Below are positions 560 to 14,280 of a stretch of 64,000 nt of DNA, piece by piece (position 1 is the stretch's first letter; every line of letters starts with the position of its first letter). The position numbers and the translations under genes are program-made. The stretch is from positions 2,980 through 66,979 of the forward strand of contig JAGBAW010000003.1 in assembly GCA_017938725.1 (NCBI GenBank). Direction: 5' to 3'. Source of the stretch: Bacilli bacterium (GTDB taxonomy: Bacteria; Bacillota_I; Bacilli_A; RF39; UBA660). The notes below the pieces were generated by a model that was not told the DNA's origin, did not search any database, and saw nothing but the letters and a program-made list of their open reading frames with translations.

Positions 560-622
560 ATGATTAATCCCTCACCTAAATAATAATCTTTGAATATAAT
601 GTTTATGAGAAAGGGAGGAATT

Positions 623-1225
623 ATGAAAAAGATAATTATAGGTGTAATCTTAGGCGTTATTGCTATACTATCAGTTATATTTGTAATTGTTAGCAATAAT
701 GATAAAGATAAAGATACCTTAACAAAGGTAAAAGTTGCAGAAGTGGCACATACTATATTTTATGCACCACAATATGTTGCTTTAGAAAAGGGGTATTTTA
801 AAGATGAGGGTTTAGATATAGAACTTTTATTAACACCAGGTGCTGATAAAGTAACTAGTGCAGTTTTATCAAAGGATGTTGATATTGGTTTTTGTGGTAG
901 TGAAGCATCAATATATGTATATAACTCAGGTAATGAAGATTATGTAGTTAATTTTGCTGGTCTAACAAAAAGAGATGGAGCATTCTTGGTATCAAGAAAA
1001 AAAATAGATAATTTTAAATTAGAAGATTTAAAGGGTAAGTATGTAATAGGAGGAAGAAAGGGCGGTATGCCCGAAATGACTTTTGAATACACATTAAAAG
1101 AAAATGGTATCAATTTGGATGAATTAACAATTGATACTAGTGTTGATTTTGCATCAATGGGAGGTACATTTATAAGTGGAGTTGGAGATTTTGTAACTTT
1201 ATTTGAACTTAGTGTAAGAGAATGA
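623..1225 (+). pseudogene. ABC transporter substrate-binding protein, NitT/TauT (NMT1/THI5, ThiY-like) family: N-terminal ~200 aa, truncated by an inserted element
   Basis: GGGAGG RBS 6 nt upstream of ATG at 623. Signal/TM segment, then NMT1-like periplasmic-binding-protein sequence. The ORF ends ...FELSVRE-stop right at the insertion junction, and the remainder of the gene resumes in frame at 6300. Confidence 0.8.
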
Positions 1226-1254
1226 AGTCGCCAAGTGAAAAATTATATGTCTTT

Positions 1255-2964
1255 TTATAGACAGAAATAACAATTCACAAGGTATGCGACTTTATATCTT
1301 TTAGTTCCCTGTGTATCATATCCTCGAAAAAACTCATAACTACTTCTTAAAATTTGTTGTAGTTTTTTATTTTCATCATTTTCTTTATAAGATAAAAATA
1401 TATTTAACTCCATATTATTTTTATCATTACTTATTTTAGATACGACGATATGGTCAAGTAGTGAACTAATTATTTTAGTTATAGTAGATTTTAAATTAAC
1501 TTTTGAATTCAAGATATTCTCTAGCTCTTTAGTTTTATCAGTATTTCCTTTTATTTTTTTCTTATCTTGTTTTAATTGGTTTAATTCTTTAGTGAGTTCA
1601 TTTATTTTATCATTAAATGAATTATTTCTTTCATAAAATTCTTCATTAGATAAACCACCTTGAATGCTTAATTCTAATATCTTATCTTTCCTAGCATAAA
1701 TATTATTTATCTCTTTTTCTAAAGATTTAATTTCCTCATCAATACCAGTATCTATTTCTAAGTGTTTATAATAATTCATAAGAATATCAATAATACTCCC
1801 TGAATCTATTTGTAATTTAGATATTAGATCTTTAAAAATGGCATCTAATTCTGATTCTCTTATATTAGGTGAATCACAAGTGGTTTTACCTTTTTTTAAA
1901 TATTCTGAACAAACCCAAGTAATGTCTTTTTTATTTTTTCTAAACTCTCTTCTGTGGAAAACAGTACCATGCTCTCCACAATAAATTTTAGCACTATACA
2001 AGTATCTATTTTTATAAATACTTTTATCTTTTTTTCTCTCACTAAATGCTTTTTTTCTTGTTATTAAACGAGTGTTAGCTCTTTCCCACAGTTCTTCATC
2101 AACAATTGGTGGAATTCTAGATTTATCTTCATAGATAACCCAATCATCCTTTTCAAAATATTTTATCTTTTTATTCATATAGTCTACTATTTCTGATTTT
2201 TTAGCACAATAATATCCTTTATATTTAGGATTTTCAATCATTCGTGAAATTGTAGATATGCACCATTTTTTACCTTGACATGTTTTTAATCCTTCACTAT
2301 TTAATGACTTAGCAATTTTAGAAAGAGATAATTCTTCAACTACATAAAGTTCATAAATTCTTCTGACAACTTTAGCCTCATCATCAATGATATTTAATAC
2401 TCCAGTATCCTTATCTTTTTTATAACCATAGAGCATATCATTTCCAAGTATTTCCCCTCGTTCTATAGCACGATTCATACCGAATTTAACACGCTCTGAT
2501 AATCTTCTTATTTCATCTTGTGCCATAGAAGCCATTATTGTTAATCTTAATTCAGAATCAGGTAAGGCAGTATTAATATTATCATTTACAAATAAAACAG
2601 CTACTCCGAAAGACAAAAGTTCTCTTGTATATTTTATACTATCAAGAGTATTTCTTGAAAATCTAGAAATTTCTTTGGTAACAATTAAATCAAATTTACC
2701 ACTTCTAGCATCTTCAATCATCTTCATAAAGTTATCTCTTTTAATATCACTTGTACCAGTTATTCCATCATCTACATAACCTGATATATAAGTCCAATTT
2801 GGATTTCCTTTTATATATTGTTCAAAATGTTCCACTTGATTTTGAAGAGATTTCTTTTGCTCTAGATGATCTGTTGATACTCTTGCATAATCTGTTACTC
2901 TAAGTTTTATACTTGTAAGTGGCATTCCCATATTTAACTGCTTTCGAACAGTATATAAATCCAA
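1255..2964 (-). CDS. large serine recombinase (resolvase/invertase-type N-terminal catalytic domain + recombinase and zinc-ribbon/coiled-coil C-terminal region)
   Basis: N-terminal YARVSTDHLEQ (catalytic Ser) and resolvase-like motifs (GYVDDGITG, RFSRN). Length of 569 aa and a C-terminal Cys cluster are typical of large serine recombinases. Possible TTG start with an AAAGGAG RBS. Confidence 0.85.
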   Translation of the reverse strand: MDLYTVRKQLNMGMPLTSIKLRVTDYARVSTDHLEQKKSLQNQVEHFEQYIKGNPNWTYISGYVDDGITGTSDIKRDNFMKMIEDARSGKFDLIVTKEISRFSRNTLDSIKYTRELLSFGVAVLFVNDNINTALPDSELRLTIMASMAQDEIRRLSERVKFGMNRAIERGEILGNDMLYGYKKDKDTGVLNIIDDEAKVVRRIYELYVVEELSLSKIAKSLNSEGLKTCQGKKWCISTISRMIENPKYKGYYCAKKSEIVDYMNKKIKYFEKDDWVIYEDKSRIPPIVDEELWERANTRLITRKKAFSERKKDKSIYKNRYLYSAKIYCGEHGTVFHRREFRKNKKDITWVCSEYLKKGKTTCDSPNIRESELDAIFKDLISKLQIDSGSIIDILMNYYKHLEIDTGIDEEIKSLEKEINNIYARKDKILELSIQGGLSNEEFYERNNSFNDKINELTKELNQLKQDKKKIKGNTDKTKELENILNSKVNLKSTITKIISSLLDHIVVSKISNDKNNMELNIFLSYKENDENKKLQQILRSSYEFFRGYDTQGTKRYKVAYLVNCYFCL

Positions 2965-3004: not shown

Positions 3005-3202
3005 TTAGTAACAAGCATTAGCACCACTTACACTCACAATTTTTAATTCCTTTAAAATATTTTCTTCTGTATATTTAAACATCTTATAAGATATTTTATT
3101 TTCATCAAACAACTCTTTATTTAAGGAAAGAGCCACTTCTAAAAGTATTTCTCTATTTTTATATTTTACTTCTTTACTTCCCATAATATCGTTAAAATTC
3201 AT
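3005..3202 (-). CDS. hypothetical small protein
   Basis: 65-aa ORF inside the element. No motifs. Confidence 0.3.
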   Translation of the reverse strand: MNFNDIMGSKEVKYKNREILLEVALSLNKELFDENKISYKMFKYTEENILKELKIVSVSGANACY

Positions 3203-3268: not shown

Positions 3269-3478
3269 CTATTTAGTATCTAGTTTCTGCTTAGTCTCTT
3301 TTACACGTTTAACCATTAATATGTTTTGAATTGTTTTAATTAGTTTTCTTATTTCATTATGAAGAAGATTATTGTTATCTTTAATCATTTGTATATCTCC
3401 TTTACTTAATATAATCTTTTTAGTTAACTGTGACTGCTCATATTGAATTCTGTTAACAACACTAATATAATCACTCAT
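3269..3478 (-). CDS. hypothetical small protein (possibly remnant of a longer, disrupted gene)
   Basis: 69-aa ORF. The frame stays open ~45 codons upstream of its ATG without a start, which suggests decay. Confidence 0.3.
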   Translation of the reverse strand: MSDYISVVNRIQYEQSQLTKKIILSKGDIQMIKDNNNLLHNEIRKLIKTIQNILMVKRVKETKQKLDTK

Positions 3479-3752
3479 TATTTTAGTTATTTCATTTTTA
3501 CATTCAATATCTTCTTTATATAAGGATTCATAAATACAAGCACTTCTAACATACGAAGCAAAATGTGGTCCAAATCCATACTCTATTGCTTTTTCTGTAA
3601 TTATTCTTATTTCTTAGTCATTTAACATAATATTAATTTTCTTTCTACATCATCTATATCCATCCATTTATTTTTCAGATTATCATCTCCATCTTATGAC
3701 ATATAGTATAATTTTAATCTATCAAGCATGGTGTTATCACACCCTTTTCTTG

Positions 3753-3770
3753 TTAGGGATGAATCCCTAA
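3753..3770. repeat. perfect 8-bp inverted repeat TTAGGGAT-ga-ATCCCTAA in a non-coding stretch of the element
   Basis: Seen directly in the sequence. It is not followed by a T-run. Confidence 0.4.
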
Positions 3771-4004
3771 GACCTATAGTCTCCGACAGTTTAGATATAT
3801 TTTACTCATATAATCACACTCCTTTCTTGTAAGATAATTAAAAAAGGGCACAAAAAAAGAGATAAAGTCTCTCAAAATTAGTCTTTCTTCTAATTACTCT
3901 ATATTATCATTTTAACACATTTTTTTAGGACATGCAACGGACATATTTTTAAAAATATACTCACTATTGTTATTTTATCTTTATAAATAAATAGAAAAAT
4001 CATT

Positions 4005-4553
4005 TTAATTTTTTTTGATTTCTTGCAAAGTTAACTGTTTATTTTTTTCTTTTCGCTTTTCATTTTTATATGCTTTATTTAAATTATCTAATAGTTTTAT
4101 CCATCCACTACCAATTACTTCTTCTGCAAAGGCAATGCCATCTGTGGAATAGTGAAGCATTGTTTGACCTAATAGTGAAATACTCATTTCGCTATGACCT
4201 TGTTGATGAGTAAGCTTACTAATTTCTTCCCAAGATTCACCATTAGCAATATGTTCCATTATTTCTCCAGCTTCTTCATAAGCATGTAATTCTGATTCTA
4301 TTGAATAATCATCAACTTCTCCAGCTAGATATATAAGTTTTTGTATTGTTTTTGTCCAATTAACCTTCTCTTCTTCTTTACAATAAACAGAATATTTTGA
4401 CATCTTTTGTATATAGTCATTAGCTATATAGCTTAAAAATTTTCCATCTTTAGTTATAAAGAGAAGTTTTGACATTTTCATATCTCTGACAGCATTTTCT
4501 GCTGTTACTTCAAACATTTTATCTACAAATTCTTTTGATTCTTCTTTTGACAT
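4005..4553 (-). CDS. hypothetical protein (182 aa), element cargo
   Basis: Compact ORF co-oriented with and immediately downstream of the RhuM-like gene. No motifs recognised. Confidence 0.5.
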   Translation of the reverse strand: MSKEESKEFVDKMFEVTAENAVRDMKMSKLLFITKDGKFLSYIANDYIQKMSKYSVYCKEEEKVNWTKTIQKLIYLAGEVDDYSIESELHAYEEAGEIMEHIANGESWEEISKLTHQQGHSEMSISLLGQTMLHYSTDGIAFAEEVIGSGWIKLLDNLNKAYKNEKRKEKNKQLTLQEIKKN

Positions 4554-4612
4554 CTAAAATCCCCCAGTCAATTGTTTTATATTGTATACTTTAAAATAAT
4601 TATTAGCAATAC

Positions 4613-5599
4613 TTATTTATCAATTTCTTCTATTTCTTTATTTAAGGCTTCTAGGTAATCTTGTTCAGCAGTAGTTAAATGTTCTTGCATATATTTATCA
4701 TATTCTTCATGTGCTTTTTTTAATGCTTGTTCATGAGATATTTTTCCACTACCTTTTAATATATCTTTTCTAGTCATTTTTAAAAATGAGTCTAATTCAT
4801 TCACCCAATCTTGCATTGTCATTGAATGTCTATCTAGTGCATTAATTTCAGCAACATCTAAATAAGCGGATACCATTCTATTTAAAGTATTAAGTTCCTC
4901 TTCAGTTAAATAGTTTTTAGCAATTTCAGTTTCACTTTTTGTTGGATAATTACCTTTAAAATTAGTAAGTCCTAAATTTTCTTTATTAGAATCAATCCTA
5001 TAAAATATTACCTCAGCAGCAGTATTGCCATGGGTAGCGTAGTGCATTTTATTTTGAACTGTTTTAAAGAAATCTATTGATAATTTATCTTTAGGATTAT
5101 AGTCAATTGAAGTTGCATAAATATCTAATACTTTTCTCCAGAATATTTTCTCTGAAGATCTAATATCACGAATTCTGGCAAGTAATTCTTCAAAGTATGG
5201 ACTTTCACCGTTATTTTTTAATCTTTCATCATTTAAAGCAAAACCTTTAATCATATATTCTTTTAAAACTTTGGTTGCCCATATTCTAAATTCGGTTGCT
5301 TTTTTAGAATTAATTCTATATCCAACAGCTATAATAGAATCCAAATTATAGTGTTCTATATTTCTTTTAACTTTTCTTTTGCCTTCGTTTTGAACTGTCA
5401 AGAAATTCTTGACAGTTAAATTTTTATCAAGTTCTTCTTCTTTAAATATATTATTTAGATGATAACTAATATTTTGTTTAGTAGTATCATAAAGATTAGC
5501 CATTACATCTTGGCTCATCCAGATATCTTCATTTTGTATATTAACATCAACTTTTACATTACCATCTTTTGATACATATATAAGCATATTGTTTTTCAT
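4613..5599 (-). CDS. RhuM-family (virulence-protein RhuM-like) cytoplasmic protein
   Basis: Sequence pattern typical of the RhuM family (N-terminal ...NIQNEDIWMSQ..MA.LYD......I..HL.NIF.E.EL...., RINSKKATEFRIWATKVLKEY, EELLARIRDIR). Confidence 0.75.
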   Translation of the reverse strand: MKNNMLIYVSKDGNVKVDVNIQNEDIWMSQDVMANLYDTTKQNISYHLNNIFKEEELDKNLTVKNFLTVQNEGKRKVKRNIEHYNLDSIIAVGYRINSKKATEFRIWATKVLKEYMIKGFALNDERLKNNGESPYFEELLARIRDIRSSEKIFWRKVLDIYATSIDYNPKDKLSIDFFKTVQNKMHYATHGNTAAEVIFYRIDSNKENLGLTNFKGNYPTKSETEIAKNYLTEEELNTLNRMVSAYLDVAEINALDRHSMTMQDWVNELDSFLKMTRKDILKGSGKISHEQALKKAHEEYDKYMQEHLTTAEQDYLEALNKEIEEIDK

Positions 5600-5618
5600 A
5601 AGCTAATCTCCTTTCTAT

Positions 5619-6203
5619 TTATTTATTTTTATTTTTATTTCCAACTTCTTTTGCGTTTTCTAAAATATCATTAATGAATTCATTCATTGTACAACCATAT
5701 ATAGGTTTGTCATATTCATAAATATGTAAACAATTTAATATTTCCTCATTTATAGGATTTCTTTGTTTATTGTGTTCAATATGTTTTTCTTTTTGATAAT
5801 TAATAGCATCTTGATAAGTTTCAAATTCATATATTCCTCTATTATTGAAATCAGAGTGTTCAAAATAATAATACTTTCCATTATTTTCAAATACTAAATA
5901 TGTATGAGTTAAATAGGAATTATCATAAGGAAGTTCAAACCATATAAAAAATGTTTTAAAATTATAATTATGAGTTTTGAACCAATCTCTTTCTAATTCA
6001 ACCTGATCCCAGCAATGTCCATATCCTACTTTGATTAATCTTTCTGGACTAGATAAATGCCATTTTGTTTGACAGCCCTCTTGAAATTCTCGGTTATTCC
6101 ATGGTACATATTCTTTTTCACTATCATCTACAAATCCATACTTTATATTATCATCCATATATTTTAATAATTGTTCTGGTGTTTTAACATCATTATATTT
6201 CAT
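5619..6203 (-). CDS. hypothetical protein (194 aa) with conserved His/Cys pair (GYGHCWDQ), element cargo
   Basis: ORF with ATG and short spacing to the RhuM gene. A possible Cys/His hydrolase, but the fold is not assignable by eye. Confidence 0.5.
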   Translation of the reverse strand: MKYNDVKTPEQLLKYMDDNIKYGFVDDSEKEYVPWNNREFQEGCQTKWHLSSPERLIKVGYGHCWDQVELERDWFKTHNYNFKTFFIWFELPYDNSYLTHTYLVFENNGKYYYFEHSDFNNRGIYEFETYQDAINYQKEKHIEHNKQRNPINEEILNCLHIYEYDKPIYGCTMNEFINDILENAKEVGNKNKNK

Positions 6204-6299
6204 TTGCCCACCTCTATATAAATTATACTAAAAAAGTTCTAGTTTTCCTAGAACTTAGCAGTACTTTATATGGAAATTTATTTTGAACAATATTAGTGA

Positions 6300-6737
6300 T
6301 TTCTTATTCTTGCACTAAGAGAACCAAGTGCAACACAAGTTGAAAATGAGGGCTATGGTTATGTAGTCGCATACATAGGTGAGTATGGTGGATCAGTTCC
6401 ATATACAGCATATAATGCTAGAAAAAGTTATATAGATAAAAATCCAGATACTATTCAAAAATTTACAAACGCAATTAATAAAGGATTAGATTTTGTATGG
6501 AATAATGACGAAGAGGCGATTGCTAAAGTAATAGTTAATCAATTTCCTGATTTAACAATTAATGAACTTGCTACTATGATTAAAAGATATAAGGATAATG
6601 ATGCATGGATGAAGGATACATATTTTACTGAAGAATCATTTAATCATCTTCAAGATATTATGATAGAAGCTAAAGAACTTGAAAATAGGGTTCCGTATGA
6701 AGATTTAGTAAATACTACTTTCTCTAAATCAAAATAA
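6300..6737 (+). pseudogene. ABC transporter substrate-binding protein (NitT/TauT family): C-terminal ~145 aa, separated from its 5' half by the inserted element
   Basis: Open frame with no start codon (FLILALREPSATQVENEGYGYVVAYIGEYGG...). The frame is continuous with 623..1225 once the element is removed. It ends 1 bp before the ATPase gene. Confidence 0.8.
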
Positions 6738-6738
6738 T

Positions 6739-7488
6739 ATGAATAAAGTATTAGAAATAAAAAATCTCTATAAAACATATTATACAAAAGACTCAGAGAT
6801 TGAGGCATTAAAAGACATCAATTTAAAAATAGAAGAGAAAGATTTTGTAGGAGTAGTAGGTCCCTCTGGTTGTGGTAAATCAACTTTGCTATCAATAATT
6901 GGGGGACTTGAAAATCAAACTTCTGGAGAAATAAAGAAAGATGATAATTTAAAAATAGGGTATATGCTTCAGGACGATTGCTTGTTTCCATGGCTTACTA
7001 TTTATGAAAATTGTCTAATTGGACTTAAAATAACAAAAACATGTACTAAAGAAAATACGGATAATGTAAAAAAATTACTTGAAACTTATGGATTAAAAGA
7101 TTTTATAAATAATTATCCAAAAGATTTATCAGGGGGTATGAGACAAAGAGTTGCACTTATAAGAACTCTTGCCTTAAAACCAGATTTACTTTTACTTGAT
7201 GAACCATTTTCAGCACTTGATTATCAAACAAGGCTTTCTGTATCAAATGATGTTTTGAATATAATAAAAAAAGAAAATAAGACATTAATAATTGTTACAC
7301 ATGATATATCAGAGGCGATAAGTATGTGTAATAAAATAATAGTTTTATCAAAAAGACCATCTACAATAAAGAAGGTTTATAATATTAATTATAATTTTGA
7401 TAGGGAAAATCCTGTAAAAAGTAGAAGTAGCAAACAATTTATGGAATATTATGAGAAAATTTGGGAAGATCTTAATAATGAAAAGTAA
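6739..7488 (+). CDS. ABC transporter ATP-binding protein (NitT/TauT family)
   Basis: Walker A GPSGCGKST, signature LSGGMRQR, Walker B LLLLDEP, H-loop THD. Confidence 0.9.
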   Translation: MNKVLEIKNLYKTYYTKDSEIEALKDINLKIEEKDFVGVVGPSGCGKSTLLSIIGGLENQTSGEIKKDDNLKIGYMLQDDCLFPWLTIYENCLIGLKITKTCTKENTDNVKKLLETYGLKDFINNYPKDLSGGMRQRVALIRTLALKPDLLLLDEPFSALDYQTRLSVSNDVLNIIKKENKTLIIVTHDISEAISMCNKIIVLSKRPSTIKKVYNINYNFDRENPVKSRSSKQFMEYYEKIWEDLNNEK

Positions 7489-8263
7489 TGGGTATAAAAA
7501 ATATCTAAAAAGAATAAAAAGGGATAATATTCTTGTATTTGCTACTCAAATTATTATAGTTATATCATTTATTGTTATATGGCAAATTTTAGCTGACAAA
7601 CGAATAATAGACACATTTTTAACATCAAGCCCAGCTAAAGTATATTCAACTATTATTGATTTAATCAAAGCAGGTAACTTTTGGAATCATATATTTACTA
7701 CAGTGTATGAAATTATTATAAGCTTTATATTAGGTAATTTTATAGGTATATTTGTAGCTAGTATATTATGGTTTAATAAATTTTTGGCAAGAGTATTTGA
7801 ACCATTTTTAACAATACTTAATAGTTTACCGAAAGTAGCACTTGGACCACTTATAATAATATGGGCTGGTGCGAATATTAAATCTATTATATTAATGTCA
7901 CTTTTAATATCTGCGATTATTAGTATTATTAATATATATAATAGTTTTAAAAGTACAGATATAAATAAAATCAAGATAATTAAATCAATGGGTGGAAATA
8001 AGTTTCAAATTTATAAAAATGTAATTTTAAGAGATAATTATATAAAGATAATAGAATCTTTTAAAATAAATGTAAGTATGTGTTTTGTTGGTGTAATAAT
8101 GGGTGAGTTATTAGTATCAAAAGAAGGAATAGGTTATTTAATAATGTATGGATCACAAGTATTTAATATGAATTTTGTAATTACAGGTGTAGTACTTTTA
8201 GTAATTCTAACAGTTATATTATATTATGTGATTAACTATATAGAAAAGGTCTCTAGAAAATAG
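7478..8263 (+). CDS. ABC transporter permease (NitT/TauT family)
   Basis: Multi-TM hydrophobic protein overlapping the ATPase stop. Completes the SBP-ATPase-permease operon. Confidence 0.85.
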   Translation: MKSNGYKKYLKRIKRDNILVFATQIIIVISFIVIWQILADKRIIDTFLTSSPAKVYSTIIDLIKAGNFWNHIFTTVYEIIISFILGNFIGIFVASILWFNKFLARVFEPFLTILNSLPKVALGPLIIIWAGANIKSIILMSLLISAIISIINIYNSFKSTDINKIKIIKSMGGNKFQIYKNVILRDNYIKIIESFKINVSMCFVGVIMGELLVSKEGIGYLIMYGSQVFNMNFVITGVVLLVILTVILYYVINYIEKVSRK

Positions 8264-8335
8264 AGATCTTTATATATATAAATTTAAAAATAACATTTTT
8301 TTATTATACTCATATACTAAGGATGGGAGGTATAT

Positions 8336-9256
8336 ATGAATTTTGACTATAAGTTTGGGAATCAGTATTATAATTATTTTTATCCAAAAGGTATTCAAAG
8401 TACTGAATATCTAATTATGGCTCCGGAGCAATCACAGAATAGTCAGCCAGGTATGGAATATTTAATGAATCCAAGACCAATATTTGATAATCCTAGTTAT
8501 AAAGGAAGTGGTAAATTAAAAGGAAAAGTTGCAATTATAACAGGGGGAGATAGTGGACTTGGAAGGGCATGTGCAGTTGCCTTTACTAAAGAGGGTGCAA
8601 AAGTGGTAATACCTTATTATAATGAACATGAAGATGCAAGTGAGACCAAAAATTACATAGAAAGATTAGGTGGAGAATGTTTATTAATATCAGGGGATAT
8701 TACAGATAAAAGCTTTTGTAAATTAATTGTTAAAAAAACATTGCAAAGATTTGGGAAAATAGATATACTTGTAAATAATGCAGGTGTTCAATACGAGCAG
8801 GACAGTTTAGAATGTATTAGTGATGAACAATTTGACTGGACAATGAAAGTGAATGTATATGGAATGTTTTATTTAACTAAAGAGGTTTTACCTTATTTAA
8901 AAGAAGGTTCATCTATAATAAACTTAACTTCAGTTACTACTTTTTATGGAGATCCACAATTAATTGATTATGTTACAACTAAGGGCGCTATTGTAGGATT
9001 TACAAGAGCACTTGCAAGAAATTTAGCACTAAAAAAAATAAGAGTTAATGCAATTGCACCAGGATTTTTTTGGACACCACTTCAGCCAGCCTGCTGGGTA
9101 AAAGAAAAAATTCCCTCATTAGGTGCCGATGCTGCAATGAGAAGAGGTGCTATGCCATATGAACTTGCCCCTACATTTGTTTTTTTAGCCTCAGATGATT
9201 CAAGCTATATGACAGGGCAAGTTATACATAATAATGGTGGTCAAGTAATGGGGTAA
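8336..9256 (+). CDS. SDR-family oxidoreductase (YhdF/YghA-like)
   Basis: GKVAIITGGDSGLGRA Rossmann motif, NNAG, catalytic YxxxK. GGAGG RBS. Confidence 0.85.
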   Translation: MNFDYKFGNQYYNYFYPKGIQSTEYLIMAPEQSQNSQPGMEYLMNPRPIFDNPSYKGSGKLKGKVAIITGGDSGLGRACAVAFTKEGAKVVIPYYNEHEDASETKNYIERLGGECLLISGDITDKSFCKLIVKKTLQRFGKIDILVNNAGVQYEQDSLECISDEQFDWTMKVNVYGMFYLTKEVLPYLKEGSSIINLTSVTTFYGDPQLIDYVTTKGAIVGFTRALARNLALKKIRVNAIAPGFFWTPLQPACWVKEKIPSLGADAAMRRGAMPYELAPTFVFLASDDSSYMTGQVIHNNGGQVMG

Positions 9257-9735
9257 AGGAATCTTAATACAGGTTTCTTTTTTTGCAATTAAAAGTCTCC
9301 TTTGAAATATTTCATAGTGAAAGTAGTTGGCAATCTGTTTATTCAGTTTTTGGGACAATTATATCTTCGACAAGTGTAAGTAAATTTACTAAACATTTTA
9401 CATATTTAAAAAGATTAATATGTAATTTTAGCTATTTTATAATATTTATATTACTATTGATGTTGATAGATTATATAGGAGTTATCAATATTAATCAAGC
9501 ACCTAGATTTTTATTAGTTAAAGTATCAGGAGATGATACTATTTACTATGATACACCATTTATGATGTTATTAGGTGTAATGTAAATAATGATAAGGAGG
9601 TTTTTACAGTAATAAGAAATCAAAAATATGATAGAGATAATATAGATGAGCTTTGTAAATAATAAAGTATTAGAATATGAAAATAGTAACGTACTTGATA
9701 ATATTATTTATAATTATTTAAATATTTGTCAGAAG

Positions 9736-9764
9736 TTGACATTAATTATTAATTGAAGTATAAT
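9736..9764 (+). promoter_or_regulatory. near-consensus sigma-70-type promoter (TTGACA-17 nt-TATAAT) for the RiPP precursor gene
   Basis: TTGACA at 9736-9741, TATAAT at 9759-9764, 17-nt spacer. AAAGGAGG RBS at 9771-9778, ATG at 9786. Confidence 0.6.
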
Positions 9765-9785
9765 TTTTTTAAAGGAGGAACTATA

Positions 9786-10010
9786 ATGGATAAAAAAATT
9801 ATTGAATTTAAAAATAATAAAAACAAAATATTTGTTGATGGTAATTTAGCATTAAAATCACATAAAGAAGATTTTAATAAAAAGAATCCAGATGAAGAGA
9901 AATATACTGCACCAAAAGTAAAGAAAATGGTTTTTGAAAAAACTAATTCAAAAATTGTTATGGGATGTTGGCAACAAAGTTATACATCAAATGGTGGAGA
10001 CGGTTGTTAA
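9786..10010 (+). CDS. putative RiPP precursor peptide (74 aa; charged leader, C-terminal core ...KIVMGCWQQSYTSNGGDGC)
   Basis: Strong promoter and RBS. Lys/Glu/Asp-rich leader-like region with a short Cys/Trp/Tyr/Gly-rich C-terminus. Lies immediately upstream of an RRE-radical SAM-SPASM-type enzyme. Confidence 0.6.
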   Translation: MDKKIIEFKNNKNKIFVDGNLALKSHKEDFNKKNPDEEKYTAPKVKKMVFEKTNSKIVMGCWQQSYTSNGGDGC

Positions 10011-10016
10011 ATTAAT

Positions 10017-10055
10017 AAGCTTTTATGAATTGCATTTCATAAAAGCTTTATTATT
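10017..10055 (+). terminator. 13-bp perfect hairpin (AAGCTTTTATGAA-ttgcat-TTCATAAAAGCTT) followed by TATTATT: putative attenuator between precursor and maturase
   Basis: Seen directly. Placement after a precursor gene is typical for setting precursor-to-enzyme stoichiometry in RiPP operons. Confidence 0.55.
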
Positions 10056-10067
10056 AGAAAGGAAATT

Positions 10068-11318
10068 ATGAAAGATTTTGTAATTAGGCAAGGAGAGGAA
10101 ATAACCTTTGCGATTAATATAAAAGAATCAGAAACAATATATGAATTTGATGGTGTTTCTAAGATTATTTTCGATAATATGGATAAAGATTGGAAATATA
10201 TATCAAATATATTAAAAGATAAGTATAACAATGTATCCGAAAAAGAAATGGAAGATGATTATATTAATTTTATTAATGAATTAAAACTATTAAGAATAAC
10301 AAGTGATAATATTGAAAACATAATTATTAATATTGAAAATTGTGATATAAAAAATGCTTCTGTTGAAATTATAAATAGTTGTCCATTTAAATGTGATCAT
10401 TGTTATGTATCAAATAAAAAACAACAAATTAATATAAATGATTATAGAAAAATAATAGATCAATTATCAAGTTTAAATTGTGTGGAACTATTGATAACCG
10501 GTGGAGAACCATTTCTTCATCCAAATTTTATTGAAATGTATTTATATGCAAAGAGTAAAGGAATATTAGTAAGCATCAATTCTAACATTTTTTTATTAAA
10601 TGATAAAATATTAAATGTTATATGTGAGTATAAGCCGAAAGTAATAGAAGTAAGTTTATATGGATTTGATAATGATAGTTATTTTAAATTTACTCATGTA
10701 AAAAATGCATATTCAATAATAAATAAAAATATTACTAGTTTAATTAATAATAATATAAATATAAGTTTAAAGTCTGTCTTGACTAAAAAAAGCATGGATT
10801 ACATTTATATATTAAAAAAATATGCTGACAATTATAAAATACCATTTAGATATGATTATATAATTTTTCCTAATCAAGATGGATTAAAAGATAATCCTGA
10901 AAGATGTTCTCCAGAAGAAATTGTTAGTGTATTGAAAAAAGATGAAGACACTGTAAACTTTTTTAGAAGTAAGGTAAAAAATATTCCCACAAATATAGAA
11001 GATAATTGTTATATATTTCAATGTAGTATTGGGAAAGATAGAATATTTATTAGTTCAAATTTAGATATAAGACCATGTCTTGTTGTACCTTTCAAATATA
11101 ATTTGTCAAAATATACCATTAAAGAAGCATACTATAAATTTAAGAATATTTCTAAAATATATAAAAATAATAAAGATAATAAGTGTATAAATTGTAATAA
11201 AAAATCAATATGTAGATATTGCCCTGGCAAATTTTATATGGAAACTGGAAGTTTTGAAACTATACCGGATTTTTATTGTGACTTAGCAAATAAAATAATA
11301 AAGGAGTTTAGTTTGTGA
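10068..11318 (+). CDS. radical SAM peptide-maturase-like protein (N-terminal PqqD-like RRE region, Cx3Cx2C core, Cys-rich SPASM/twitch-type C-terminal domain)
   Basis: CPFKCDHC motif at ~aa 105-112. The N-terminal ~95 aa resemble a PqqD-like peptide-binding domain. C-terminal cysteines: CYIFQC...C...CINCNKKSICRYCPG. Confidence 0.9.
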   Translation: MKDFVIRQGEEITFAINIKESETIYEFDGVSKIIFDNMDKDWKYISNILKDKYNNVSEKEMEDDYINFINELKLLRITSDNIENIIINIENCDIKNASVEIINSCPFKCDHCYVSNKKQQININDYRKIIDQLSSLNCVELLITGGEPFLHPNFIEMYLYAKSKGILVSINSNIFLLNDKILNVICEYKPKVIEVSLYGFDNDSYFKFTHVKNAYSIINKNITSLINNNINISLKSVLTKKSMDYIYILKKYADNYKIPFRYDYIIFPNQDGLKDNPERCSPEEIVSVLKKDEDTVNFFRSKVKNIPTNIEDNCYIFQCSIGKDRIFISSNLDIRPCLVVPFKYNLSKYTIKEAYYKFKNISKIYKNNKDNKCINCNKKSICRYCPGKFYMETGSFETIPDFYCDLANKIIKEFSL

Positions 11319-11319
11319 T

Positions 11320-11802
11320 ATGATAAAAGTATATGACGGAAATAAAATTAATGATACTATATTAGATCAAATGTATAAAATTTTAATTGAAAATTTATTT
11401 ATCACGTATCCCTCTTTTTTAGATAATAGAGATAAACATGATAATGAAAAAAATTATAACATATGGACTAATATGATAAAAACAACAGAAAATTATAATG
11501 TAATTATATATAAGGAAAATAATAAAGTTTTTGGATTTTTAAATTATTGTATTATAGATTCGAATTTATGGATTTCAGAAGTTCAAATAAAAGATGAATA
11601 TAAAAACAAAAGAATATTAAAAAAATTAATAAATAAATTTGTTTTAATAGAAAAAAATAGAAAATATTCTACTGTTACAATACATATAAACGATGAAAAT
11701 ATATTATCTAAAACAGTTTTTGAACATATTGGGTTCAAATCTGTCGGGGACACATTATATAAAATAAATATAAAAGATTTAATTGATTGGAGTATTTGTT
11801 AA
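11320..11802 (+). CDS. GNAT-fold acetyltransferase-like protein (tentative)
   Basis: Translationally coupled to the rSAM gene (TGA-a-ATG). Central and C-terminal pattern is reminiscent of GNAT motif A/B (KNKRILKKLINKF...VFEHIGFK), but the signature is weak. Confidence 0.5.
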   Translation: MIKVYDGNKINDTILDQMYKILIENLFITYPSFLDNRDKHDNEKNYNIWTNMIKTTENYNVIIYKENNKVFGFLNYCIIDSNLWISEVQIKDEYKNKRILKKLINKFVLIEKNRKYSTVTIHINDENILSKTVFEHIGFKSVGDTLYKINIKDLIDWSIC

Positions 11803-11840
11803 TTATAAATATATACAATTAAATAATATTTTAGGACATG

Positions 11841-11960
11841 AAATGGATAAAAATTCAGTATGTAAGGATTTTAGATTAATTAAATTAATAAATGGAAGTG
11901 ATAATTCTTATGAAGATTTAATTTATAAGTATAATATATCCCTTTGTGTTCCCAAAAAAT
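11841..11960 (+). pseudogene. N-terminal fragment of a sigma-70-family (ECF/TcdR-like region 2) factor
   Basis: 39-aa ORF MDKNSVCKDFRLIKLINGSDNSYEDLIYKYNISLCVPKK-stop resembles the start of sigma region 2. It is followed by further short broken ORFs up to ~12100. Confidence 0.4.
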
Positions 11961-12186
11961 AAAAATGATAAATTTAAGTATTCAATTAAGAGAAATGAGC
12001 ATAGAAAAATTAAATTTAGATATAGATAAACTAAGCAAGCTTCCTATATTAGAAATAGAAAGATAACAAGTTAAAAAATTACATATTTGAAGTAATTTTT
12101 TTTTGCCAAATAATTAAAAAATAATGCAAAGAATATACCATAAAAAGACAATATATGATAAAATATTTGTCAGAAAGGTATTAATT

Positions 12187-14280
12187 ATGAATTTAGACAG
12201 TTTAAATGAAAGACAGAAAGAGGCAGTGATAAATACAGATGGTCCAATGTTAATACTTGCGGGCGCAGGATCAGGTAAAACTAAAGTTTTAACAACAAAA
12301 GTTGCATACCTTATAAATGAAAAAGGTGTATATCCTGAAAATATACTTGCTATTACATTTACAAATAAGGCTGCTAAGGAAATGAAATCAAGAATATATC
12401 CCATTGTAGGTAATGGCGCATTTAAGTTACAAATATCAACATTTCATTCATTTGGTCTTAAAATAGTTAAGGAAAATTCAAGATTACTTGGGTATGATAG
12501 TAATTTTACAATACTTGATGCGGATGATTCTTTATCTGTTATAAAGAAGATATTAAAAGATTTAAATATAGATTCTAATAAGTATAATCCAAAAGCAATA
12601 AGAAATGTAATTAGTAATAATAAGAATGAAATGATAGATTCTAAGGATTATGAAAAATTTGTTCATACTGATTTTGATGAAGTAGCAAAGGAAGTATATC
12701 AAAAATATGAGAGAAACTTAAAATTAAGTAATGCGATGGATTTTGATGATTTATTAGTTCTCCCTTTAAAATTATTTAAAGAATATCCTAGAGTATTAGA
12801 AGAATATCAAGAAAGATATAAATATGTATTTATAGATGAATATCAGGATACTAATGAGCCACAATATATATTGTCTAAGATGATAGCAGCTAAATATAGA
12901 AATATAACTGTAGTTGGAGATGCTGATCAAGCAATATTTACTTGGAGGGGAGCAAATTATAAAAATATATTAAATTTTGAAAAAGATTACCCTGATGCTA
13001 AGGTAGTATTACTTGAGGAGAATTATAGATCTACTAAGACAATACTAAATGCTGCAAACAATGTTATTAAAAATAATAAGATAAGAAAAGAAAAAAATTT
13101 ATGGACTGAGAATGAAGATGGATGTAAAATTGTATATTATAAGGCATTTGATGAAAAAGATGAATCTAATTATGTTGTTCATGAAATTAAGAGATTAATT
13201 GAAGGTGGAGTTAGCCCAAATGATATATGTGTTTTATATAGGGCAAATGCTCAGTCTAGAACAGTTGAAGAATCATTCTTAACTAGTAATATTTCCTATA
13301 ATATAGTTGGGGCTTATGCATTTTATAATAGAAAAGAAATAAAGGATTTAATTGCTTATTTAAAACTATTATATAATAGCAAGGATGATGTATCACTTCT
13401 TAGAATTATTAATTATCCAAAAAGAGGAATAGGAAGTAAAGCAATAGAAAATTTAAGTATAAAGAAAGATGTTTTAGAAAAATCTTTATATGAGGTTATT
13501 GATTCTGGGAAGGAATTACAATTTAAAAATCTAATTGAGGATATTAGAAAAGATATCGATAAGTTATCTTTAACGGAACTTATAGACTTAGTGCTTGATA
13601 AATCAGGTATTAGAAATGAACTTGAGAGTGAAAAAACTATTGAAGCTGACATAAGACTTGAGAATCTTGAAGAATTTAAGTCCATAACAAAATCATTTGA
13701 AGAAAAAGAAGGAATAGTATCATTGGGAGAGTTTTTAGACGAATTATCTTTAGTAAGCGATGTTAGTGAGCAAAAAGATGATACAAAAGAAAAGGTAACT
13801 CTTATGACAATGCATGCTGTTAAAGGATTAGAATTTGACTATGTATTTGTAGTTGGATTTGAGGAAGGACTTTTTCCACATATAAACTGTATGGAGTCAA
13901 ATGATGAACTAGAGGAAGAGAGAAGACTTTGTTATGTTGCAATAACAAGAGCAAAGAAGAAATTGTATTTAATAAATGCAAGAAGTAGAATTCTATATGG
14001 ACAAGTTTCTTCTAATATTCCTAGTAGATTTATAAAGGAAATAGGGGAAAATTTACTAGAAACAATTGGTAAAAAGGAAGAGTTTGTATATAAAGAAAAA
14101 ATAGATAAAAGTAAAATGTTTAATGATGATAATGACTTACATCCTGGAGATGTAGTTAATCATGATAAATATGGAATGGGAGTTGTAATATCTATAGATG
14201 GATCTATTGCAACAATATCATTCAAAAAAGATGGAATGAAAAAATTAATGAAAAATCATAAAAGCATAAGGAAGGTATAA
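12187..14280 (+). CDS. pcrA: ATP-dependent DNA helicase PcrA (UvrD family)
   Basis: AGAGSGKT Walker A, UvrD helicase motifs throughout, C-terminal Tudor-like tail. Start chosen at MNLDSLNERQKEAV. Confidence 0.9.
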   Translation: MNLDSLNERQKEAVINTDGPMLILAGAGSGKTKVLTTKVAYLINEKGVYPENILAITFTNKAAKEMKSRIYPIVGNGAFKLQISTFHSFGLKIVKENSRLLGYDSNFTILDADDSLSVIKKILKDLNIDSNKYNPKAIRNVISNNKNEMIDSKDYEKFVHTDFDEVAKEVYQKYERNLKLSNAMDFDDLLVLPLKLFKEYPRVLEEYQERYKYVFIDEYQDTNEPQYILSKMIAAKYRNITVVGDADQAIFTWRGANYKNILNFEKDYPDAKVVLLEENYRSTKTILNAANNVIKNNKIRKEKNLWTENEDGCKIVYYKAFDEKDESNYVVHEIKRLIEGGVSPNDICVLYRANAQSRTVEESFLTSNISYNIVGAYAFYNRKEIKDLIAYLKLLYNSKDDVSLLRIINYPKRGIGSKAIENLSIKKDVLEKSLYEVIDSGKELQFKNLIEDIRKDIDKLSLTELIDLVLDKSGIRNELESEKTIEADIRLENLEEFKSITKSFEEKEGIVSLGEFLDELSLVSDVSEQKDDTKEKVTLMTMHAVKGLEFDYVFVVGFEEGLFPHINCMESNDELEEERRLCYVAITRAKKKLYLINARSRILYGQVSSNIPSRFIKEIGENLLETIGKKEEFVYKEKIDKSKMFNDDNDLHPGDVVNHDKYGMGVVISIDGSIATISFKKDGMKKLMKNHKSIRKV

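What the first reader, a model, noticed from the sequence alone, without database searches (positions are those of the whole stretch)
4005..6203. Three-gene cargo module: unknown 194-aa (H/C motif) - RhuM-family - unknown 182-aa, co-directional inside the mobile element
The three ORFs are tightly spaced on the same strand (gaps of 19 and 59 bp), so they probably form an operon whose promoter lies next to the right end of the element. RhuM-family proteins recur in mobile and defence islands but have no established mechanism. The 194-aa protein carries a conserved-looking GYGHCWDQ His-Cys pair suggestive of a small hydrolase. The 182-aa protein is acidic with no motifs. The arrangement is compatible with a toxin/antitoxin or anti-phage module, but nothing here proves it.
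Basis: partly seen in the sequence, partly recalled or inferred. Interest (0 to 1): 0.6.

Follow-up and report, generated by a model that had tools for sequence, protein, structure and literature searches.

The report
RhuM defence gene plus two unlinked passengers
The three genes are real and sit together on a small mobile element. However, they are three separately inherited passenger genes (a cysteine-protease-like protein, a RhuM candidate anti-phage protein and an orphan helical protein), not one three-part system, so the locus is fairly ordinary.

Summary
Three co-directional minus-strand ORFs (194, 328 and 182 aa; gaps of 19 and 59 bp) lie inside a 5.1-kb large-serine-recombinase element. 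The element splits an NMT1/SsuA-type binding-protein gene of an uncultured gut Bacilli genome.

- **Middle gene:** a textbook RhuM protein (Pfam 366 bits) and matches PADLOC candidate PDC-S05. One preprint reports that PDC-S05 protects E. coli from T7, T5 and T4.
- **194-aa protein:** a confidently modelled transglutaminase-like cysteine-protease fold. Its closest solved structures are CPR-C4 and the vasohibins. Cys64, His100 and Glu115/Asp118 are conserved.
- **182-aa protein:** an all-helical orphan with no family or fold match.

The "three-gene module" reading fails on comparative evidence.
- Of 60 genomes with a 194-aa homologue, only the 7 closest have RhuM next to it, and none has the 182-aa gene.
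- 52 viral contigs with RhuM homologues have neither neighbour.
- Close relatives show an intact protease gene beside a decayed RhuM, an intact RhuM beside a decayed protease gene, and RhuM alone.
- The slot after RhuM holds different genes in sister elements: Fic, an HTH-WYL regulator, a HAD-like gene or other unknowns.
- All three genes stay under purifying selection without their partners.

Verdict: a mosaic cargo region, whose only gene with a defence link is a new member of a known kind.

The parts
590..1207 (+). N-terminal part of the host NMT1/SsuA-type ABC substrate-binding-protein gene, cut by the element
   Evidence: Pfam NMT1 3e-16. tblastn with the intact homologue from L003 stops at ...LFE.
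1208..1234 (.). Left end of the element: terminal inverted repeat beside the GAAC junction (1207-1210)
   Evidence: Inverted-repeat pair I8, 27 nt, 74% complementary to 6293-6319. Junction sequence read.
1255..2964 (-). Large serine recombinase (569 aa), the element's integrase
   Evidence: Pfam Resolvase, Recombinase and Zn_ribbon_recom. PHROG 95 integrase 2e-116. Only distant from CcrB/CcrC.
3005..3202 (-). 65-aa backbone ORF ('c52'), conserved just upstream of the recombinase in sister elements
   Evidence: 75-84% identical copies in L002, L007 and L168. 62-65-aa ORFs sit at the same position in L074, L075 and L139.
3269..3478 (-). 69-aa ORF: the C-terminal remnant of a 131-137-aa NikA/MobC-like mobilisation protein ('c51')
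   Evidence: Matches the C-terminal half of the L002 137-aa protein. That full-length protein gives a weak NikA-like hit of 4e-4.
3480..3900 (-). Decayed backbone region: frameshifted remains of c51 (N-terminal half) and of the 173-aa 'c50' gene
   Evidence: The sequence reads ...EKAIEYGFGPHFASYVRSACIYE... out of frame with the 69-aa ORF, and the c50 start is truncated. Intact versions are in L002, L074, L075 and L139.
4005..4553 (-). U182: 182-aa all-helical orphan protein, a swappable cargo cassette
   Evidence: Model pLDDT 92.9. No PDB or BFVD fold match and no family match. DNA homology with L143 breaks exactly around it.
4581..4609 (-). Promoter-like site TTGCTA-17-TACAAT in the RhuM-U182 gap, followed by a GGGGG ribosome-binding site
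   Evidence: Consensus scan and sequence. Promoter-like sites are not enriched over shuffles, so this is only a lead.
4613..5599 (-). RhuM-family protein (328 aa), matching PADLOC phage-defence candidate PDC-S05
   Evidence: Pfam Virulence_RhuM 8.9e-110 and a weak Bro-N hit at residues 18-111. PADLOC PDC-S05 6e-143, with the N-terminal 148 aa shared with PDC-S23.
5619..6203 (-). TG194: 194-aa transglutaminase-like (CPR-C4/vasohibin-like) cysteine-protease-fold protein
   Evidence: Pfam DUF553 at 20.8 bits against a cut-off of 20.5. Model pLDDT 94.8. Foldseek top hits are CPR-C4 7OB6/7PJO, prob 1.0, TM 0.57-0.60. C64, H100, E115 and D118 are conserved.
6207..6256 (-). Upstream control region of TG194: 9-bp-arm palindrome (6256..6234), T-run, TATAAT (6227..6222) and GAGGTGGG ribosome-binding site (6214..6207)
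   Evidence: Terminator-like hairpin from the scan. Sequence. Conserved in the window, L002 and L007.
6293..6320 (.). Right end of the element: terminal inverted repeat plus the GAAC junction
   Evidence: The same end sequence is present in L002.
6318..6737 (+). C-terminal part of the split binding-protein gene, followed by the ABC ATPase and permease genes
   Evidence: tblastn resumes at EPSATQVE.... ORFs.

Best explanation
The region is the cargo end of a 5.1-kb integrative element. A large serine recombinase inserted the element site-specifically into an NMT1/SsuA-type binding-protein gene of a gut Bacilli bacterium. The three ORFs are three independent passenger genes that happen to be adjacent.

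1. **RhuM (PDC-S05).** This is most likely a stand-alone anti-phage or abortive-infection protein. Its N-terminal ~125-150 residues form a Bro-N/KilA-N-like nucleic-acid-binding module that is shared with another candidate family. Its C-terminal helical domain, rich in invariant polar residues, would be the effector. That split is an inference.
2. **TG194.** This is a cytoplasmic Cys-His cysteine protease or amidase of the transglutaminase-like CPR-C4/vasohibin fold. It is probably co-transcribed with RhuM from a promoter at the element's right end. It belongs to a family that otherwise sits in ordinary chromosomal contexts, and RhuM does not need it.
3. **U182.** This orphan helical protein occupies a cassette slot between RhuM and the element backbone. 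Sister elements fill the slot with Fic, an HTH-WYL regulator plus a 164-aa gene, a HAD-like gene, or another unknown.

Shown here: gene identities, folds, element borders and independent assortment. Inferred: defence activity of this RhuM copy, protease activity of TG194, and the transcription units.
For: **Element**
- Split host gene, GAAC at both junctions, terminal inverted repeats and a recombinase.
- The identical element sits at the same site in several samples.

**RhuM**
- Pfam 366 bits; PADLOC PDC-S05 474 bits, with PDC-S23 models matching only residues 1-148.
- A PDC-S05 gene lowered plating of T7 and T5 about 1,000-fold and of T4 about 10-fold in E. coli (bioRxiv 10.1101/2024.09.26.614923).
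- Anantharaman et al. proposed RhuM as a toxin domain found in restriction-modification (R-M) loci (PMC3710099).
- RhuM homologues at 45-52% identity lie inside type III and type I R-M operons, or next to integrases, in the viral contigs.

**Independence of the three genes**
- Of 60 genome loci with a TG194 homologue, RhuM follows only in the 7 closest (78% or more), and none has U182.
- 52 viral-contig loci with RhuM have neither neighbour.
- U182 homologues sit alone near polC or in unrelated islands.
- L147-152 keep an intact TG194 (85%) beside about 57 codons of RhuM debris.
- L168-171 keep an intact RhuM (88%) beside about 33 codons of TG194 debris.
- L158-167 have RhuM (88%) alone.
- dN/dS stays at about 0.1 for RhuM and about 0.25 for TG194 in copies that lack their partner.

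**Cassette slot**
- The L143/window DNA match ends at the RhuM stop codon and resumes just after the U182 stop codon. In between, L143 carries an HTH+WYL gene and a 164-aa gene.
- Other sister elements fill the slot with Fic, an unrelated 200-aa protein (L002), or a HAD-like gene plus U182 (L074/L139).

**TG194 fold**
-. The CPR-C4 triad C61/H93/L115 (PMC9108980) parallels C64/H100/E115.
Against: - TG194 and RhuM are tightly spaced (19 bp here, overlapping stop/start in L005). The pair survives in two sets of flanks: the recombinase element, and the island with Fic in L001 and L003-6. This would also fit a functional pair.
- RhuM followed by U182 recurs in four diverged element variants (window, L075, L074, L139).
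- No experiment exists for this RhuM clade or host. The one PDC-S05 test used an unrelated representative in E. coli, and the RhuM mechanism is unknown.
- Promoter and terminator calls are consensus matches only.
Confidence: 0.72

Rival explanations
1. TG194 and RhuM form a two-gene unit. The cysteine protease either keeps RhuM in check (antitoxin-like) or processes and activates it on infection. U182 is unrelated.
For: The genes are spaced by 19 bp here, and the stop and start codons overlap in L005. The pair is kept in 9 close loci: L001-L007, L143 and the window. It occurs with two different downstream regions. Both genes share one upstream control region.
Against: - The pairing is limited to one recent lineage (TG194 at 78% or more, RhuM at 81% or more).
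- The L001-type upstream region looks like a degenerate copy of the same element end. The two contexts may therefore share ancestry rather than show independent transfer.
- Intact RhuM at 88% identity is abundant without TG194 (the index lists it in 187 and 52 blocks of the collection) and keeps dN/dS at about 0.1.
- Intact TG194 persists beside degraded RhuM.
- 53 of 60 TG194 loci lack RhuM, and some of these sit among housekeeping genes such as frr, pheS and rsgA.
- PDC-S05 worked as a single gene.
Confidence: 0.1
2. One reading: all three genes make up one operon-encoded toxin/antitoxin or anti-phage system.
For: The genes are co-directional and tightly spaced, with no strong terminator between them. 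The same three-gene arrangement is found on all contigs that carry the identical element.
Against: - No locus outside near-identical copies has all three genes.
- The third position is replaced by unrelated genes in sister elements.
- A HAD-like gene is inserted between RhuM and U182 in L074/L139.
- A promoter-like site lies in the 59-bp gap.
- PADLOC has no multi-gene model that matches the locus.
Confidence: 0.04
3. RhuM is not a defence protein in this element. It is an element-serving DNA-binding factor (Bro-N/antirepressor-like) that helps regulation, excision or exclusion of competing elements. The other genes are hitch-hikers.
For: There is a weak Bro-N hit and a PHROG match in the N-terminal 120 residues. 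RhuM often lies directly beside serine or tyrosine recombinase genes at element ends.
Against: RhuM also sits inside type I and type III R-M operons and alone in chromosomes, away from recombinases. The PDC-S05 phage assay also argues against this reading. The large conserved C-terminal domain has many invariant polar residues, which suggests an enzyme or effector rather than a simple regulator.
Confidence: 0.12

Closest known systems
RhuM family (Pfam PF13310) / PADLOC phage-defence candidate PDC-S05
   Same: Full-length match (366 and 474 bits). It has the same two-part layout. It sits in the same kind of place: mobile-element ends and defence islands, and homologues lie inside type I and type III R-M operons.
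   Different: This copy sits on a 5-kb serine-recombinase element in a low-GC gut Bacilli genome, behind a protease-like gene. No activity data exist for this clade, and the family mechanism is unknown.
CPR-C4 (PDB 7OB6/7PJO) and vasohibins: transglutaminase-like cysteine proteases; Pfam DUF553
   Same: Same core fold by Foldseek (prob 1.0, TM about 0.6). The Cys sits at a helix N-terminus and the His on the following strand, with similar spacing (C64/H100 against C61/H93).
   Different: Sequence identity is only 11-13%. The third triad position is an invariant Glu115 or Asp118 rather than a Leu backbone carbonyl. The host range is gut Bacilli, not Candidate Phyla Radiation (CPR) bacteria. The substrate is unknown. 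The DUF553 score is barely above threshold.
Small large-serine-recombinase integrative/mobilisable elements (Tn4451-type transposons, SCC-like cassettes)
   Same: One large serine recombinase at one end, site-specific insertion with a short shared core and imperfect terminal inverted repeats. Sister copies carry a small NikA/MobC-like ribbon-helix-helix gene. There is a variable cargo region.
   Different: The recombinase is only distantly related to CcrB/CcrC (121 bits against a cut-off of 900). No relaxase gene is present. The mobilisation-like genes are decayed in this copy. The comparison with Tn4451 rests on my recollection of that element and was not tested here.
RhuM-Fic/DOC and RhuM-R-M associations described by Anantharaman et al. 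2013 (PMC3710099)
   Same: Sister loci L001 and L003-6 carry a Fic gene directly after the same RhuM (Pfam Fic 1.7e-11). More distant homologues are embedded in R-M operons.
   Different: In the window the position after RhuM is taken by an orphan helical protein, not Fic. hhalign finds no relation between RhuM and the neighbouring Fic protein.

Membership tests
RhuM family (PF13310) | Match to the family profile above the gathering score over most of its length | tested here: met
   366.3 bits against a cut-off of 33.7; profile positions 2-248 of 252
PADLOC PDC-S05 (single-gene phage-defence candidate) | Full-length match to PDC-S05 models | tested here: met
   474 bits, residues 2-321 on model positions 5-321 of 330
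PADLOC PDC-S05 (single-gene phage-defence candidate) | Protects cells against phage when expressed | not testable with these tools
   Only literature on another representative is available
Transglutaminase-like cysteine protease superfamily (DUF553 / CPR-C4 / vasohibin) | Core alpha/beta fold shared with solved members | tested here: met
   Model pLDDT 94.8. Foldseek finds CPR-C4, VASH1/2, SseI, PNGase and NAT, prob 0.9-1.0. DUF553 scores 20.8 against 20.5 bits.
Transglutaminase-like cysteine protease superfamily (DUF553 / CPR-C4 / vasohibin) | Conserved Cys nucleophile at a helix N-terminus, plus His (and an acidic or carbonyl third member) on the following strands | tested here: met
   C64 is nearly invariant and starts helix 64-77. 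H100 is invariant and starts strand 100-107. E115 is invariant and D118 nearly invariant.
Transglutaminase-like cysteine protease superfamily (DUF553 / CPR-C4 / vasohibin) | Proteolytic or amidase activity | not testable with these tools
Type II toxin-antitoxin pair (TG194/RhuM or RhuM/U182) | The two genes are co-conserved as neighbours, and the toxin gene does not persist intact without its antitoxin | tested here: not met
   Intact RhuM occurs without TG194 or U182 (L158-171). Intact TG194 occurs without RhuM (L147-152 and 53 of 60 loci). U182 homologues occur alone.
Multi-gene anti-phage system (three-gene) | The gene set recurs together across diverged genomes | tested here: not met
   All three genes occur together only in near-identical copies of this element
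Large-serine-recombinase integrative element | Recombinase with Resolvase, Recombinase and Zn-ribbon domains | tested here: met
   9e-32, 1e-24 and 1.5e-11
Large-serine-recombinase integrative element | Discrete insertion that interrupts a target gene, with a short common core and inverted-repeat ends | tested here: met
   Binding-protein gene split, GAAC at both junctions, 27-nt inverted repeats. An intact target gene is present in L003, L010 and L037.
Large-serine-recombinase integrative element | Excision and circularisation activity | not testable with these tools
   The backbone genes c50 and c51 are decayed in this copy, so mobility may be impaired

The most novel reading that the evidence does not exclude
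The position between RhuM and the element backbone is a cassette-exchange hotspot for defence-related genes; its other occupants include Fic and an HTH-WYL regulator. On this reading, U182 is a new stand-alone defence or anti-defence protein with a previously unseen all-helical fold. Alternatively, RhuM is a common sensor that works with interchangeable downstream effectors, U182 being one of them.
Probability: 0.15. Interest if true: 0.6.

Novelty: new member of a known kind. Interest (0 to 1): 0.3.

Why it matters
RhuM (PDC-S05) is one of the commonest candidate defence genes, and its mechanism is still unknown. This locus adds a compact, well-delimited natural context with a clear promoter region. 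It also comes with a set of natural "deletion variants": RhuM with or without the protease gene, and with different downstream cassettes. Together these variants argue that RhuM works alone. The analysis also does three smaller things:

- It places an uncharacterised ~190-aa protein family of small-genome gut Bacilli in the CPR-C4/vasohibin protease fold.
- It flags a 182-aa orphan fold.
- It describes a serine-recombinase element family that repeatedly targets one ABC-transporter binding-protein gene.

None of this overturns current views.

Tried and rejected
- **U182.** No PDB or BFVD fold match. No PDB sequence match with a profile. No Pfam family in 37 distant relatives. No relation to the 200-aa protein that replaces it in L002 (hhalign). 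No relatives in the viral contigs.
- **A Tad3 lead.** Weak hits to Pfam Tad3 (a Thoeris inhibitor) occur only in a short repeated motif of an N-terminal domain that the window protein lacks. I rejected this as evidence about U182.
- **RhuM.** No solved homologue by sequence or profile. No detectable relation to the neighbouring Fic protein. Literature searches returned no mechanism.
- **Metagenome scan with TG194.** It gave only 4 loci.
- **Antitoxin idea.** I considered TG194 as an antitoxin of RhuM and rejected it, because abundant intact RhuM copies have the TG194 gene deleted.
- **Promoter scan.** Promoter-like matches are not enriched over shuffled sequence (36 found against 43.5 expected). 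The transcription units remain inferred.
Full report
**1. Observation**

The ORF list shows three minus-strand ORFs exactly as described:
- 6203..5619, 194 aa, here called TG194;
- 5599..4613, 328 aa, RhuM;
- 4553..4005, 182 aa, here called U182.

The gaps are 19 and 59 bp. All three are genuine genes. TG194 has more than 150 homologous clusters. U182 has 18 by word-seeded search and 644 with a profile search of 1.8 billion representatives. RhuM has more than 7,900. Pairwise dN/dS is about 0.25 for TG194, about 0.1 for RhuM and mostly 0.2-0.45 for U182.

**2. Setting**

The genes lie in a 5.1-kb insertion. An NMT1/SsuA-type substrate-binding-protein gene (Pfam NMT1) is split at ...DFVTLFE|PSATQVE... 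when compared with the intact homologue in L003.
- GAAC is present at both junctions (1207-1210 and 6317-6320).
- The ends are 27-nt imperfect inverted repeats.
- The far end encodes a 569-aa large serine recombinase with Resolvase, Recombinase and Zn-ribbon domains. It is only distantly related to CcrB/CcrC.

Sister elements (L002, L074, L075, L139) show the backbone order: a 173-aa HTH-like gene, a 131-137-aa NikA/MobC-like gene, a 62-65-aa gene, then the recombinase. In the window the first two backbone genes are decayed. The 69-aa ORF at 3478..3269 is only the C-terminal half of the NikA-like protein.

The identical element occupies the same site in several samples, including NCBI MAG assembly GCA_017623135.1; NCBI labels the encoded proteins as from a 'Bacilli bacterium' MAG. 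Relatives of the element turn up again and again at this ABC-transporter locus in other genomes.

**3. The three proteins**

*RhuM.*
- Pfam Virulence_RhuM scores 366 bits, with a weak Bro-N hit at residues 18-111.
- PADLOC PDC-S05 scores 474 bits. PDC-S23 models match only residues 1-148. This suggests an N-terminal module shared between candidate families and a distinct C-terminal domain.
- An alignment of 32 homologues has about 40 invariant positions, many of them polar and in the C-terminal half.
- No solved homologue exists by sequence or profile.
- hhalign shows no relation to the Fic protein encoded next to it in sister loci.

*TG194.*
- DUF553 ("transglutaminase-like") scores just above threshold, 20.8 against 20.5 bits.
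- The AlphaFold model is very confident (pLDDT 94.8, pTM 0.90).
- Foldseek against the PDB gives the CPR-C4 cysteine protease (7OB6/7PJO; prob 1.0, TM 0.57-0.60). The next hits are the vasohibins, SseI, PNGase and arylamine N-acetyltransferases. These hits include several transglutaminase/papain-like Cys-His enzymes.
- In 43 homologues C64 is nearly invariant and sits at the N-terminus of helix 64-77. H100 is invariant at the start of strand 100-107. E115 is invariant and D118 nearly so.
- CPR-C4 uses C61/H93/L115 (PMC9108980), which is similar spacing.
The Cys is the likely nucleophile, but the partner His is H100, not H63, which is not fully conserved.

*U182.*
- The model is all-helical (pLDDT 92.9).
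- It has no fold match in the PDB or BFVD and no family in Pfam, NCBIfam, PADLOC or PHROGs.
- It is mildly acidic, with a basic tail.
- Longer relatives (about 250 aa) carry an extra N-terminal domain that the window copy lacks.

**4. Do the genes belong together?**

*Starting from TG194.* A scan of 185,579 species-representative genomes gave 60 loci.
- RhuM follows TG194 only in the seven closest (TG194 identity 78% or more). None has U182.
- Some of the other TG194 genes sit among ordinary chromosomal genes such as frr, pheS, rsgA and an MBL-fold hydrolase.

*Starting from RhuM.*
- 52 IMG/VR loci with homologues at 42-62% identity have neither TG194 nor U182.
- In those loci RhuM lies inside type III (Mod-RhuM-Res) or type I (HsdM-RhuM-HsdS...HsdR) restriction-modification (R-M) operons, or beside tyrosine or serine recombinases.
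- The close RhuM clade (87% or more) has more than 120 clusters, far more than close TG194.
- P0406 (88% identical; the index lists it in 187 blocks of the collection) stands alone beside an intact binding-protein gene.
- P0341 (88%; listed in 52 blocks) sits in a sister element where only the last ~33 codons of TG194 remain.
- Conversely, L147-152 keep an intact TG194 (85%) followed by only ~57 broken codons of RhuM.
- Copies without partners keep the same low dN/dS.

*Starting from U182.*
- Relatives at 52-57% identity lie in unrelated islands.
- A 68% relative sits alone next to polC.
- Within the element lineage U182 does recur after RhuM: directly in L075, and with a HAD-like gene or its fragments between them in L074 and L139.
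- The same position holds other genes in sister elements:
  - an unrelated 200-aa protein in L002;
  - an HTH-WYL regulator plus a 164-aa gene in L143 and L007;
  - a Fic protein plus a 598-aa protein in L001 and L003-6, with a Shedu-like gene and a second RhuM further on in L004 and L005.
- DNA homology between L143 and the window stops at the RhuM stop codon and resumes just after the U182 stop codon. U182 is therefore a discrete, replaceable cassette.

**5. Expression signals (inferred)**

Upstream of TG194 lies a 9-bp-arm palindrome (6256..6234), followed by a T-run, a perfect TATAAT (6227..6222), GAGGTGGG and then ATG.
- This block is conserved in the window, L002 and L007.
- The palindrome could be an operator that overlaps the -35 region. 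It could instead be a terminator that insulates the cargo, for example from recombinase read-through after circularisation.
- RhuM has its own ribbon-binding site (AAAGGAG) in the 19-bp gap.
- The 59-bp gap before U182 contains TTGCTA-17-TACAAT and a GGGGG ribosome-binding site.
- Promoter-like matches are not enriched over shuffles, so these signals are leads only.

**6. Mechanism proposed**

The element carries RhuM as a stand-alone defence gene. By analogy with its family, the N-terminal Bro-N/KilA-N-like module would recognise a phage nucleic acid or protein cue. The conserved C-terminal domain would then act as a toxic effector. Three lines of literature and context support this:
- Anantharaman et al. 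proposed a toxin role.
- One PDC-S05 representative gave 10- to 1,000-fold protection in E. coli.
- The R-M and integrase contexts seen here are typical for such genes.

TG194 most likely acts as a cytoplasmic Cys-His hydrolase on an unknown substrate. Its presence here looks like co-transfer, not partnership. U182's role is unknown. The defence-flavoured occupants of its slot (Fic, WYL regulator) make a defence or counter-defence role possible but unproven.

**7. Comparison and novelty**

RhuM here is a new member of a known candidate family. TG194 is a remote, previously unplaced relative of the CPR-C4/vasohibin proteases. U182 is an orphan. The carrier is an ordinary small serine-recombinase element with an unusual, recurrent target. 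The three-gene "module" is not a system.

Interest is modest (0.3). The locus does not open the RhuM mechanism, but the natural variants argue that RhuM acts alone, and the slot after RhuM is a small source of candidate genes.

Noticed in passing
window 590-1207 and 6318-8263; also L002, L009, L147-152, L158-171: The element, or remnants of its cargo, is found again and again at the same NMT1/SsuA-type binding-protein/ABC-transporter operon in different genomes. In the window the binding-protein gene is split, so the transporter has probably lost its binding protein. L148 has the same gene cut at a different point (residue ~154) by another serine recombinase.
   Followed up: partly
window 3480-3900 (minus strand): The element's backbone genes (a 173-aa HTH-like gene and the N-terminal half of a NikA/MobC-like gene) are frameshifted or truncated compared with L002, L074, L075 and L139. 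This copy may no longer be mobilisable.
   Followed up: partly
window 9753-11802: An 85-aa ORF ending in a Cys-rich tail is followed by a radical-SAM enzyme (PF04055, 1e-14) and a GNAT acetyltransferase. This may be a small ribosomally synthesised, modified-peptide (RiPP) cluster.
   Followed up: no
L076 5281-8937; L077 and L078 4525-7335 (IMG/VR contigs): A TG194-like domain (33-35% identity) is embedded in open frames of roughly 940-1,220 codons on large viral contigs. The protease fold is therefore also used by phages as part of giant proteins.
   Followed up: no
P0141, P0162, P0180 and other long relatives of U182: The N-terminal ~70-aa domain of long U182 relatives (absent from the window copy) is a repeat, occurring up to 7 times per protein. 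It gives weak summed hits to Pfam Tad3 (a Thoeris inhibitor), but only over a ~23-residue motif.
   Followed up: partly
L004 and L005, about 7000-14000: A sister locus forms a small defence island: TG194, RhuM, Fic, a 598-aa unknown, a Shedu-like gene (SduA_C 3e-12), and a second RhuM paralogue at 47% identity.
   Followed up: partly
L002 1977-4951: A second copy of the 173-aa backbone gene, plus a truncated serine recombinase, abuts a shortened ABC permease gene. An extra TG194 paralogue (64% identity) lies between the ATPase gene and the split binding-protein gene. This looks like repeated insertions at one locus.
   Followed up: no
P0100, and P0047/P0063/P0072/P0075: Some TG194 homologues are about 325 aa long. 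One is fused to an N-terminal NUDIX domain (1e-15). Of the others only P0072 was scanned, and it has no Pfam domain outside the TG194-like region.
   Followed up: partly
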